A program made the position numbers and the translations under genes. 64,000 bases of DNA, from the NCBI RefSeq assembly GCF_000026545.1, contig NC_011601.1, one strand, 5' to 3'. The notes beneath the pieces are model-generated. The model ran no database searches and was not told the DNA's origin. It worked only from the letters and a program-made list of their open reading frames with translations. Positions 36,831 to 37,332 of the stretch are shown here, piece after piece. The stretch's first letter is position 1. Each line of letters begins with the position of its first letter. This DNA is from Escherichia coli O127:H6 str. E2348/69. Its GTDB lineage: Bacteria; Pseudomonadota; Gammaproteobacteria; Enterobacterales; Enterobacteriaceae.

Positions 36831-37292
36831 GTGGCATGTGCCATATCAGGGGTCGCCGCGCTATTTTCAGGAATAGCATTATGTCAATCAGCAAAAGCAA
36901 ACCGCAGAGCAAATCAGGTATCAGAGCGAGGCTTGCGTATTGATTTAGTTGATTGTCGTATGAATATACGGAATGCGTTCACGTTAATTATGGATGAGTT
37001 CGAGGCGCAGAGATACGGGCCAGCAGATAACTATATTATTCAGGCAAAAATCACCTTCCGTGATGCGGGTATATTTTTTGGTAATGACGTAAGTGAATTT
37101 CTTACCGAGTTAATGAGACAAATTAGCACCTACAGCGAGATATTTAAAACTAGGACAATGGGCCGTCTTATTTTTGACCCTCAAGGAGATGTTAGAGAGG
37201 AAGAGCAACGATTAGAACAAATAAGGCTATGGGTGATAGCACAGCGTGGGCCCGGCAATGACATGTTCGACAGAATCATGAGTGTTTCATGA
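36831..37292 (+). CDS. hypothetical protein (up to 153 aa; called with a GTG start, true start uncertain), hydrophobic N-terminus
   Basis: Open frame followed 10 nt later by a hairpin terminator; no recognisable motif. Confidence 0.4.
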   Translation: MACAISGVAALFSGIALCQSAKANRRANQVSERGLRIDLVDCRMNIRNAFTLIMDEFEAQRYGPADNYIIQAKITFRDAGIFFGNDVSEFLTELMRQISTYSEIFKTRTMGRLIFDPQGDVREEEQRLEQIRLWVIAQRGPGNDMFDRIMSVS

Positions 37293-37302
37293 TACACGCT
37301 AG

Positions 37303-37332
37303 ACCCGGCCTCAGTGCCGGGTGTTTAATTTT
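37303..37332 (+). terminator. rho-independent terminator after the 153-aa ORF
   Basis: acccggc-ctcagt-gccgggt stem-loop followed by gtttaatttt. Confidence 0.55.

What the first reader, a model, noticed from the sequence alone, without database searches (positions are those of the whole stretch)
36831..37332. Unannotatable 153-aa ORF with its own terminator between the three-gene system and the retron remnant
A single ORF with a hydrophobic N-terminus (VACAISGVAALFSGIALC) and a C-terminal part with no motif I recognise, ending 10 nt before a clean hairpin terminator (37303-37332). It may be an independent one-gene defence/abortive-infection module, an accessory of the upstream system, or a leftover of the retron's effector partner. 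The ORF-track start is GTG and the true start is uncertain.
Basis: seen in the sequence. Interest (0 to 1): 0.4.

Follow-up and report, generated by a model that had tools for sequence, protein, structure and literature searches.

The report
Decaying phage-derived small membrane-protein gene
The ORF is a real but rare gene for a small membrane-anchored helical protein that moves as a self-contained cassette between prophages and bacterial anti-phage islands. In this E. coli genome a stop at codon 3 has cut off its start, so it is most likely a decaying passenger and not a part of the Lamassu or retron systems next to it.

Summary
In detail: ORF 36831-37292, a hydrophobic N-terminus, and a hairpin with a T-tract 10 nt after the stop. 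The GTG start is an artefact. In sister strains the gene starts at ATG 36804 and encodes 162 aa. Here, in the E. coli E2348/69 lineage, codon 3 is CAA>TAA.

The gene is real. It has same-length homologues down to 22-35% identity, and dN/dS is about 0.3 between diverged alleles. It matches nothing in Pfam, NCBIfam, PADLOC or PHROGs.

The predicted protein is a single N-out/C-in membrane helix followed by a confidently modelled cytoplasmic four-helix bundle. No catalytic motif is conserved.

It is not a Lamassu component, not a retron effector, and not an obligate Mokosh component. It occurs with each of these, without each of them, and alone in prophage accessory regions, sometimes as tandem paralogues.

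A discrete block, 36793-37358, is all that this locus shares with the Mokosh-linked copies. The E. coli-type allele has been inactivated independently at least five times.

Best reading: a phage-derived one-gene cassette whose product probably acts at the inner membrane in phage exclusion. That function is inferred, not shown. The copy in this window is crippled. Interest is modest.

The parts
36804..37292 (+). Full-length gene as it exists intact in sister strains (162 codons plus stop). Here it is interrupted at codon 3.
   Evidence: Alignment to plasmid pSA186_3 and to MB64. Translation shows MT*TDIIATV....
36810..36812 (+). Premature stop TAA (CAA/Gln in intact alleles). Specific to the E2348/69-type lineage.
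   Evidence: One search shows a single T/C difference. Searches confirm it. Five chromosomes are 100% identical to the window and five others differ at 99.6%.
36831..37292 (+). The ORF as reported (GTG start, 153 aa). Its only possible product is an N-terminally shortened protein made by re-initiation. No Shine-Dalgarno sequence lies before the GTG.
   Evidence: The absence of a Shine-Dalgarno sequence is read directly from the sequence.
36819..36884 (+). Codes for the hydrophobic transmembrane helix (residues 6-27). Small-residue positions I14, S15 and A19 are nearly invariant across the family.
   Evidence: Kyte-Doolittle 19-residue maximum of 2.18. The flanking charges are -1 on the N side and +3 on the C side.
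36936..37283 (+). Codes for the predicted cytoplasmic helical bundle (residues 45-160).
37303..37332 (+). Intrinsic terminator: stem-loop 37303-37322 followed by a T-tract.
   Evidence: Equivalent hairpins follow the gene in L004 and, after the 35%-identical allele, in L007.
36793..37358 (+). Conserved cassette block. This is the only DNA the locus shares with Mokosh-linked copies of the gene. It starts 11 nt before the ATG and ends 36 nt after the hairpin.
   Evidence: blastn gives 90.8% identity to L004 and 93.5% to L006, with no flanking homology.
33259..36663 (+). Context: an intact Lamassu / ABC-3C system (LmuA with CTD6, LmuC = MC2, LmuB ATPase). Not part of the feature.
   Evidence: Pfam. 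PADLOC LmuA 2e-133, LmuC 1.9e-54, LmuB 2.3e-176.
37529..38061 (+). Context: a retron remnant, msr RNA at 37529-37593 and an RT truncated after about 158 aa. PtuA and PtuB are deleted.
   Evidence: Rfam. Pfam RVT_1. Deletion junction at 38047/38048 relative to MB64.

Best explanation
The ORF is a crippled copy of a rare, unannotated gene family of phage origin.

The intact gene (162 aa, ATG at 36804) encodes a single-pass inner-membrane protein. It has a short acidic N-terminus outside the cell and one transmembrane helix with conserved small residues. About 120 residues form a four-helix bundle in the cytoplasm. No catalytic residues are conserved.

The gene travels as a self-contained unit, gene plus its own terminator, usually with a fossil phage promoter-region module upstream. 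It is found in prophage accessory regions and in the cargo of integrative defence islands and plasmids.

I think its product most likely excludes or aborts phage infection from the inner membrane. It would do this by binding or oligomerising, not by catalysis. The allele would determine which phage is recognised.

In this window the cassette has lost its native upstream region to the Lamassu module and carries a stop at codon 3. It is probably not expressed, or only weakly as a shortened form. It is a hitch-hiking remnant, not a working part of Lamassu or the retron.

Shown: gene reality, start and nonsense lesion, architecture, cassette boundaries, contexts, repeated inactivation. Inferred: topology (positive-inside rule), non-enzymatic action, anti-phage role.
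For: Start and lesion.

Real gene family. Nine hits at E <= 1e-3 among 1.84 billion representatives, including full-length 35%, 30%, 27% and 25% relatives of 157-185 aa. A profile search finds 26 proteins. Alignments are collinear with invariant I46, L48, R52, G151 and F155. dN/dS is 0.27-0.42 between Lamassu-linked and Mokosh-linked alleles.

Architecture. Hydropathy is 2.0-2.6 in subfamily A with net positive charge after the helix. AF2 pLDDT exceeds 90 for most of residues 51-160, with a dip to 63-78 at about 111-130.

Independence from neighbours:
- There is no PADLOC, Pfam, NCBIfam or PHROG match.
- The shared block is limited to 36793-37358.
- The gene lies downstream of Mokosh MkoA/MkoB in L004, L006-L011, L017 and L025.
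- It is absent from 7 of 8 other MkoB loci that have downstream DNA, where homology stops right after the mkoB terminator.
- In L012 it lies upstream of Mokosh.
- In L014 it is next to a GajA-like ATPase.
- It is alone in prophage accessory regions between a tail-fibre operon and the terminase genes, with tandem paralogues (L021-L024; L013) or hok/sok next door (L056).

Allelic replacement. MkoAB flanks are 95% identical between L004 and L007, yet the encoded proteins are only about 35% identical. A similar terminator follows both.

Decay of the E. coli-type allele. The lesions are Q3* here, a lost start codon in L015, Q80* in L016, a frameshift in L017, and an IS1 insertion at codon 87 shared by 57 plasmid records. 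Separately, the 35%-identical P0010-type allele is truncated in L025.
Against: No experiment or homology links the family to any phenotype. The defence role rests on genomic association and on analogy with small prophage membrane proteins.

Subfamily B's hydrophobic segment is only borderline for a membrane helix (hydropathy about 1.5), and AF2 is not confident for residues 1-39.

The gene is repeatedly inactivated, and dN/dS is near 1 within the Lamassu-linked set, based on at most 11 substitutions. The gene could therefore simply be dispensable.

In the prophages it may be the first gene of the operon that runs into the terminase genes. It could then serve the phage's own cycle. No sigma-70 consensus promoter was found upstream in the window or in the loci scanned.

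Re-initiation at GTG 36831 cannot be excluded, so 'non-functional here' is not proven.
Confidence: 0.45

Rival explanations
1. The gene is a phage accessory gene that serves the phage's own life cycle and has no defence role. It might be a membrane-tethered regulator of lysis timing, of late transcription, or of the adjacent promoter/leader module. The copies in defence islands would be inert fragments of phage DNA.
For: In subfamily-B prophages the gene is the first gene on the strand that continues into the small and large terminase genes. It sits back-to-back with a conserved promoter/leader module. Island copies keep a fossil of that module. Members give weak PHROG 'holin' matches at E = 0.002-0.006. 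The island copies decay often.
Against: These prophages have a separate lysis cassette (holin, lysozyme, DUF2514) elsewhere, as in L020. The gene is present in only 1 of 121 copies of the promoter module found in viral contigs, so it is optional cargo and not core phage equipment. Diverged alleles in islands keep an intact frame and dN/dS of about 0.3. The weak holin matches cover the hydrophobic segment only.
Confidence: 0.25
2. The gene is an accessory (fourth) component of the upstream system. It would be a membrane effector, sensor or regulator used by Lamassu here and by Mokosh elsewhere, in the way Csx28 serves Cas13b.
Confidence: 0.12
3. The gene is a leftover of the retron's effector partner.
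For: Only its position next to the retron remnant.
Against: The intact retron in MB64 and on Klebsiella plasmids is an Ec78-type unit with its own PtuA/PtuB effectors downstream of the RT. The ORF lies upstream of msr and ends in its own terminator. It occurs without any retron in L004, L006-L012 and in prophages.
Confidence: 0.02
4. The ORF is a chance open frame in island DNA and is not a gene.
For: It has no database annotation beyond 'hypothetical protein' and is disrupted in this strain.
Against: It has remote full-length homologues, a conserved architecture, dN/dS of about 0.3 and a confident predicted fold.
Confidence: 0.01

Closest known systems
Small prophage-encoded membrane proteins that exclude superinfecting phages (lactococcal Sie2009, P22 SieA/SieB, T4 Imm and Sp, HK97 gp15). 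Named from general knowledge.
   Same: Small size (about 160-190 aa), an N-terminal membrane anchor and no enzymatic motif. Carried as optional cargo in temperate phages and other mobile elements, with strongly diverged alleles at one locus.
   Different: No sequence match to any PHROG family, including those annotated as exclusion proteins. The bulk of the protein is predicted to be cytoplasmic. No phenotype is known.
Phage 'morons': independent gene units with their own terminator inserted between phage genes, such as lambda bor/lom and the HK97 morons. Named from general knowledge.
   Same: A single gene followed by its own intrinsic terminator. Present or absent between otherwise conserved neighbours. 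Found in a variable prophage region beside hok/sok.
   Different: A dedicated promoter could not be identified. The unit is also found outside phages, in defence islands and plasmids.
Csx28, the membrane accessory protein of Cas13b (PDB 8gi1)
   Different: The match is no better than dozens of generic four-helix bundles. There is no HEPN R-x4-6-H motif (the E. coli allele has no histidine). It is not tied to one partner system, and oligomeric state was not tested.
Pfam DUF6082 (uncharacterised, profile length 163)
   Same: Similar length. Weak matches of two members over the membrane helix and the following basic stretch (E = 0.005-0.045, below the family cut-off).
   Different: Not significant and limited to the hydrophobic region. 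DUF6082 has no known function, so a link would not explain anything.

Membership tests
Lamassu (LmuA/LmuB/LmuC; ABC-3C) | Protein matches a Lamassu component model | tested here: not met
   PADLOC gives 0 families for the 162-aa protein. The three upstream genes match LmuA, LmuC and LmuB at 2e-133 to 2e-176. Pfam gives none.
Lamassu (LmuA/LmuB/LmuC; ABC-3C) | Gene co-occurs with the system across diverged members | tested here: not met
   Of 102 plasmid records with an LmuB homologue, 52 are below 60% identical. tblastn with this protein finds only 51 records, all >= 90% identical. The gene also occurs without Lamassu.
Retron Ec78 effector module (PtuA/PtuB) | Effector genes lie downstream of the RT in the retron operon and match PtuA or PtuB | tested here: not met
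   The intact retron in MB64 has RT, PtuA and PtuB downstream. The ORF lies upstream of msr, ends in its own terminator and has no PADLOC match.
Mokosh type I (MkoA + MkoB) | Obligate, co-transcribed partner of MkoA/MkoB | tested here: not met
   mkoB is followed by its own terminator, and homology between Mokosh loci ends there. Seven of 8 MkoB loci with downstream DNA lack a family member. In L012 the gene lies upstream instead.
Phage moron / self-contained accessory cassette | Own intrinsic terminator directly after the gene | tested here: met
   Window 37303-37322 plus T-tract. L004 10501-10518 and L007 10555-10578.
Phage moron / self-contained accessory cassette | Present or absent between conserved neighbours; located in a variable phage region | tested here: met
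   Only 1 of 121 copies of the adjacent conserved promoter module is followed by a family member. The number of family copies and the neighbouring small genes (hok/sok in L056) vary among the related prophages L018-L024 and L056.
Phage moron / self-contained accessory cassette | Own promoter | tested here: inconclusive
   No sigma-70 consensus was found upstream in the window, L004, L007, L018 or L021. A conserved 16-nt palindrome lies 25-45 nt before the ATG. Its role is unknown.
Superinfection-exclusion membrane proteins | Prophage-borne small protein with a membrane anchor | tested here: met
   Hydropathy is 2.0-2.6 in subfamily A and about 1.5 (borderline) in subfamily B.
Superinfection-exclusion membrane proteins | Homology to a described exclusion family | tested here: not met
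   No PHROG match for the query. Members give only weak, unannotated or 'holin' matches. BFVD and PDB fold searches find nothing specific.
Superinfection-exclusion membrane proteins | Blocks infection by other phages when expressed | not testable with these tools
   Needs plaque or efficiency-of-plating assays.
Csx28-like membrane pore effectors | HEPN-type R-x4-6-H motif and specific fold match | tested here: not met
Holins | Located in the phage lysis cassette next to the endolysin, with a significant family match | tested here: not met
   The lysis cassette is elsewhere in the same phage type (L020). PHROG holin matches reach only E = 0.002-0.006 in at most 3 of 23 members.

The most novel reading that the evidence does not exclude
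The family is a new single-gene anti-phage module that acts at the inner membrane. Its specificity would be varied by whole-allele replacement between conserved flanks: 35%-identical alleles sit behind 95%-identical Mokosh operons. The fossil phage promoter/leader module it carries (the sRNA-Xcc1 region, which lies downstream of Q antiterminator genes in lambdoid phages) might couple its behaviour to an infecting phage's late-transcription machinery.
Probability: 0.2. Interest if true: 0.55.

Novelty: new member of a known kind. Interest (0 to 1): 0.3.

Why it matters
For this genome the result is mostly a clean-up. The ORF is a nonsense-interrupted passenger gene, and the nearby Lamassu system is a complete three-gene unit that does not need it.

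More generally, the work defines an unannotated and very sparsely distributed protein family, about 30 sequence clusters among billions of proteins. The family has a clear architecture and a consistent home in prophage accessory regions and defence islands. It also shows allele swapping at a fixed position. That makes it a reasonable low-cost candidate for a phage-exclusion screen.

The by-product may interest phage-transcription researchers more than the ORF does. It links the Rfam family sRNA-Xcc1 to a conserved promoter/leader module that sits downstream of Q-like antiterminator genes.

Tried and rejected
- **Family libraries.** Pfam, NCBIfam, PADLOC and PHROGs were searched with the protein and with all 23 aligned members. 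Nothing was significant.
- **Solved structures by sequence.** A profile search against PDB sequences found nothing below E = 0.1.
- **Genome-collection scans.** The full alignment was too variable to build patterns. The subfamily-B scan gave 44 pattern matches but none confirmed.
- **Other collections.** tblastn of a subfamily-B member against plasmids and GenBank phages found no match.
- **Literature.** Searches by protein accession and by Lamassu plus strain name returned nothing.
- **Repeat proteins.** Two long repeat proteins (P0012, P0015) matched residues 90-136 in 5-8 stretches. Their sequences are tandem helical repeats, so I did not treat them as family members. This was not followed up.
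- **Upstream module as the gene's own promoter or leader.** Rejected. The module is common in phages without the gene. Its TTGACA-like hexamer and the adjacent sRNA-Xcc1 point away from the ORF.
- **RNA structure in the module.** RNAalifold gave only weak covariation, 5 of 31 pairs in 8 sequences.
- **L012 as an assembly permutation.** No terminal overlap was found.

Full report
**Where the window comes from.** The region is 100% identical to the chromosome of enteropathogenic E. coli E2348/69. It lies in an island between a fimbrial operon and hipBA. The island carries the following:
- a complete Lamassu/ABC-3C system at 33259-36663 (Pfam CTD6, MC2 and AAA_23; PADLOC LmuA, LmuC and LmuB);
- the ORF in question;
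- a retron msr RNA at 37529-37593;
- a truncated reverse transcriptase at 37585-38061;
- fragments of recombinase-module genes next to hipA.

**The observation.**
- The ORF 36831-37292 has the stated hydrophobic N-terminus.
- Its stop is at 37290-37292.
- A 7-bp, G-C-rich hairpin lies at 37303-37322, followed by a T-rich tract, 10 nt after the stop.

In strain MB64, and on related plasmids, the gene begins at the ATG equivalent to window 36804 and encodes 162 aa. The window differs by one base, which turns codon 3 from CAA into TAA at 36810-36812. The GTG at 36831 is simply the first start codon after that stop. No Shine-Dalgarno sequence precedes it. NCBI's pipeline annotates only a 100-aa remnant from ATG 36990.

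Five E. coli chromosomes are identical to the window over this stretch. Five others are 99.6% identical; MB64, the one examined, has the intact codon.

**It is a real gene.**
- A full HMMER scan of 1.84 billion representative proteins found only nine matches. They include full-length, collinear relatives of 157-185 aa at 35%, 30%, 27% and 25% identity, with E from 9e-19 to 2e-5.
- A profile search raised the count to 26 proteins.
- The alignment shows a shared plan: an N-terminal hydrophobic helix, then the conserved motifs R-I-x-L, R-M/L-x-I/V-x-N/R-A-F, A-x3-F and G-K/N-x2-F.
- dN/dS between alleles 6-12% apart is 0.27-0.42.
- No Pfam, NCBIfam, PADLOC or PHROG family matches.
- All database names are 'hypothetical protein'.

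**The protein.**
- In the E. coli-type subfamily the hydrophobic segment is a clear membrane helix, with mean hydropathy 2.0-2.6 over 19 residues.
- A net negative or neutral charge precedes it and a charge of +1 to +4 follows it. By the positive-inside rule this places the N-terminus outside and the rest in the cytoplasm.
- In the second subfamily the segment is Gly/Ala-rich and only borderline, at about 1.5.
- AlphaFold2 on the 23-sequence alignment gives pLDDT of 88-97 over most of residues 51-160. It dips to 63-78 around residues 111-130, and confidence is low for residues 1-39. The confident part forms four long helices.
- Foldseek against PDB and viral models finds nothing specific.
- The invariant residues are mostly hydrophobic. 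The E. coli allele has no histidine.
- I infer a binding or oligomerising protein, not an enzyme.
- Near-invariance of I14, S15 and A19 inside the membrane helix suggests that the helix does more than anchor.

**Who it travels with.**
- *Lamassu and retron.* In E. coli chromosomes and Klebsiella plasmids it sits between Lamassu and an intact retron Ec78 made of RT, PtuA and PtuB.
- *IS1-cut plasmids.* On the 57 E. coli plasmid records the match stops after base 364 of the query. In pSA186_3, the one examined, that breakpoint is an IS1 insertion at codon 87, and Lamassu next to it is intact.
- *Mokosh.* In other enterobacteria the 88-90% alleles and the 35% allele lie downstream of a type I Mokosh pair, MkoA and MkoB.
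- *A Lelliottia plasmid.* There it lies beside a truncated mkoB remnant and the recombinase module.
- *Shared DNA.* The only DNA the window shares with these Mokosh-linked loci is 36793-37358. That block runs from 11 nt before the ATG to 36 nt after the hairpin.
- *Not obligate for Mokosh.* mkoB has its own terminator. In 7 of 8 further MkoB loci with downstream sequence, homology stops just after that terminator and no family member follows.
- *Different gene order.* In L012 a 27% allele lies upstream of Mokosh.
- *Another partner.* Another member neighbours a GajA-like ATPase.
- *Distant Lamassu systems.* The 52 plasmid records whose LmuB homologue is below 60% identical are not among the records that hold a relative of this protein.

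So the gene is not a dedicated part of Lamassu, the retron or Mokosh. It is a separate unit that settles in the same islands.

**Phage origin.**
- The second subfamily (174-199 aa) lies in prophages, in the region between a leftward operon (ERF-like gene, tail fibre, tail-fibre chaperone) and the rightward terminase, portal and head genes.
- The content of this region varies. One family gene is present in L018-L020 and L056, and two tandem paralogues are present in L021-L024. A separate phage-like contig, L013, also has a tandem pair. In L056 a hok/sok module sits next door.
- Most family members, in prophages and islands alike, are preceded by the same conserved module of about 200 nt. It is far better conserved than the proteins.
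- That module is common in phages, with at least 120 viral contigs found. Only 1 of 121 copies is followed by a family member.
- The module points away from the ORF. Its TTGACA-like hexamer and an adjacent Rfam sRNA-Xcc1 are on the other strand.
- In Aggregatibacter phages S1249 and Aaphi23 the module lies directly downstream of the Q-like antiterminator gene.
- I read the island cassettes as captured pieces of phage DNA: part of that promoter region, the gene, and its terminator.
- The window copy lacks even this upstream part. Lamassu DNA and a 140-nt spacer replace it.

**Allele replacement and decay.** Between L004 and L007 the Mokosh operon and the intergenic region are 95% identical, up to about 45 nt before the start codon. 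A similar terminator follows the gene in both. Yet the encoded proteins are only about 35% identical. This is whole-allele replacement at a fixed site, a pattern common for genes that face variable partners.

The E. coli-type allele has also been hit repeatedly and independently:
- Q3* in the window;
- a lost start codon (GTG>GTA) in K. pneumoniae plasmid L015;
- Q80* in K. quasipneumoniae plasmid L016;
- a frameshift in the Lelliottia plasmid L017;
- the IS1 insertion shared by the E. coli plasmids.

In addition, the P0010-type allele in Citrobacter (L025) is truncated after about 96 residues.

Within the Lamassu-linked set dN/dS is about 1, but this rests on at most 11 substitutions. Either the gene is dispensable once it is separated from its native upstream region, or its expression is costly. 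The data do not distinguish these.

**Mechanism.** My best reading, at about 45% confidence, is a stand-alone, phage-derived membrane protein that excludes or aborts infection by other phages. It would act through its membrane helix and cytoplasmic bundle without catalysis, and the allele would determine the target. This is inference from architecture, location and allele behaviour. Nothing here tests function.
- The main rival, at about 25%, is that the gene serves the phage's own cycle and the island copies are inert.
- The accessory-to-Lamassu/Mokosh reading keeps about 12%.
- The retron-leftover and chance-ORF readings are effectively excluded.

For this genome, the copy is most likely silent or weakly expressed as a shortened form.

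**Novelty and score.** The family is not described in any library searched, and it is very rare. It is still one more small accessory membrane protein of mobile elements, and the copy in this window is damaged. Interest: 0.3.

Noticed in passing
L021 9820-9990; L012 53-239; L004 9765-9955; L007 9772-9961; more than 120 IMG/VR loci (L034-L153): A conserved module of about 200 nt (AAAAAAATCACGCTGACGGGGTGA ... GGCTTTTGAGACC ... TGTCAA) precedes most family members but is widespread in phages without them. It lies beside an Rfam sRNA-Xcc1 match on the opposite strand. In Aggregatibacter phages S1249 and Aaphi23 it lies directly downstream of the Q-like antiterminator gene. This suggests that sRNA-Xcc1 is the leader RNA of a Q-controlled phage promoter. 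In the literature search run here, none of the 10 best-ranked papers mentions sRNA-Xcc1.
   Followed up: partly
L004 9926-9943; L007 9934-9949; L012 about 215-232; L021 9966-9983: A 16-nt palindrome, GGGTAAATAATTACCC (6-7 bp arms), is conserved 25-45 nt upstream of the start codon across alleles that share only 25-35% protein identity. It could be an operator or an insulating hairpin. It is absent from the window.
   Followed up: no
window 36681-36779 (+): A 32-codon Cys-rich mini-ORF (METQCTMSCSCCCAQWSFMDEVITSVKRILSS) with an AGGAGG ribosome-binding site lies between lmuB and the gene. In Klebsiella plasmids it shows two amino-acid changes, no silent change, and a weakened binding site. There is therefore no sign of selection, and it is probably not a gene.
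   Followed up: partly
window 38047-38048 and 38576-38605: Relative to strain MB64, a deletion joins the RT gene at 38047/38048 to the recombinase-module genes and removes ptuA and ptuB. A 27-30-nt sequence at 38576-38605 recurs at the ends of related islands in other species (L004, L006, L007, L012). It is probably the terminus or attachment site of the integrative element that carries two or three tyrosine-recombinase genes.
   Followed up: partly
L021 10001-10546 and 10569-11105; L013 1823-2299 and 2292-2825: Tandem paralogues of the family occur in phage contexts. Both copies keep the hydrophobic N-terminus. This could reflect a hetero-oligomer or a widened target range.
   Followed up: partly
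L012 1032-4387 compared with L004 3220-8172: In L012 the Mokosh MkoA gene is split into a NERD protein (432 aa) and a helicase (683 aa) by loss of about 1.6 kb between the NERD and helicase parts, relative to the 94%-identical L004 copy.
   Followed up: no
L056 5680-5974: A hok/sok-type module (Rfam sok, 84 bits) sits immediately after the family gene in one prophage. This underlines that the site is an accessory-gene slot.
   Followed up: no
P0012 (978 aa) and P0015 (660 aa): Two long proteins built of tandem helical repeats of about 100 aa match residues 90-136 of the query in 5-8 stretches each (E = 1e-7 and 9e-4). I treated this as incidental helical similarity and did not examine it.
   Followed up: no
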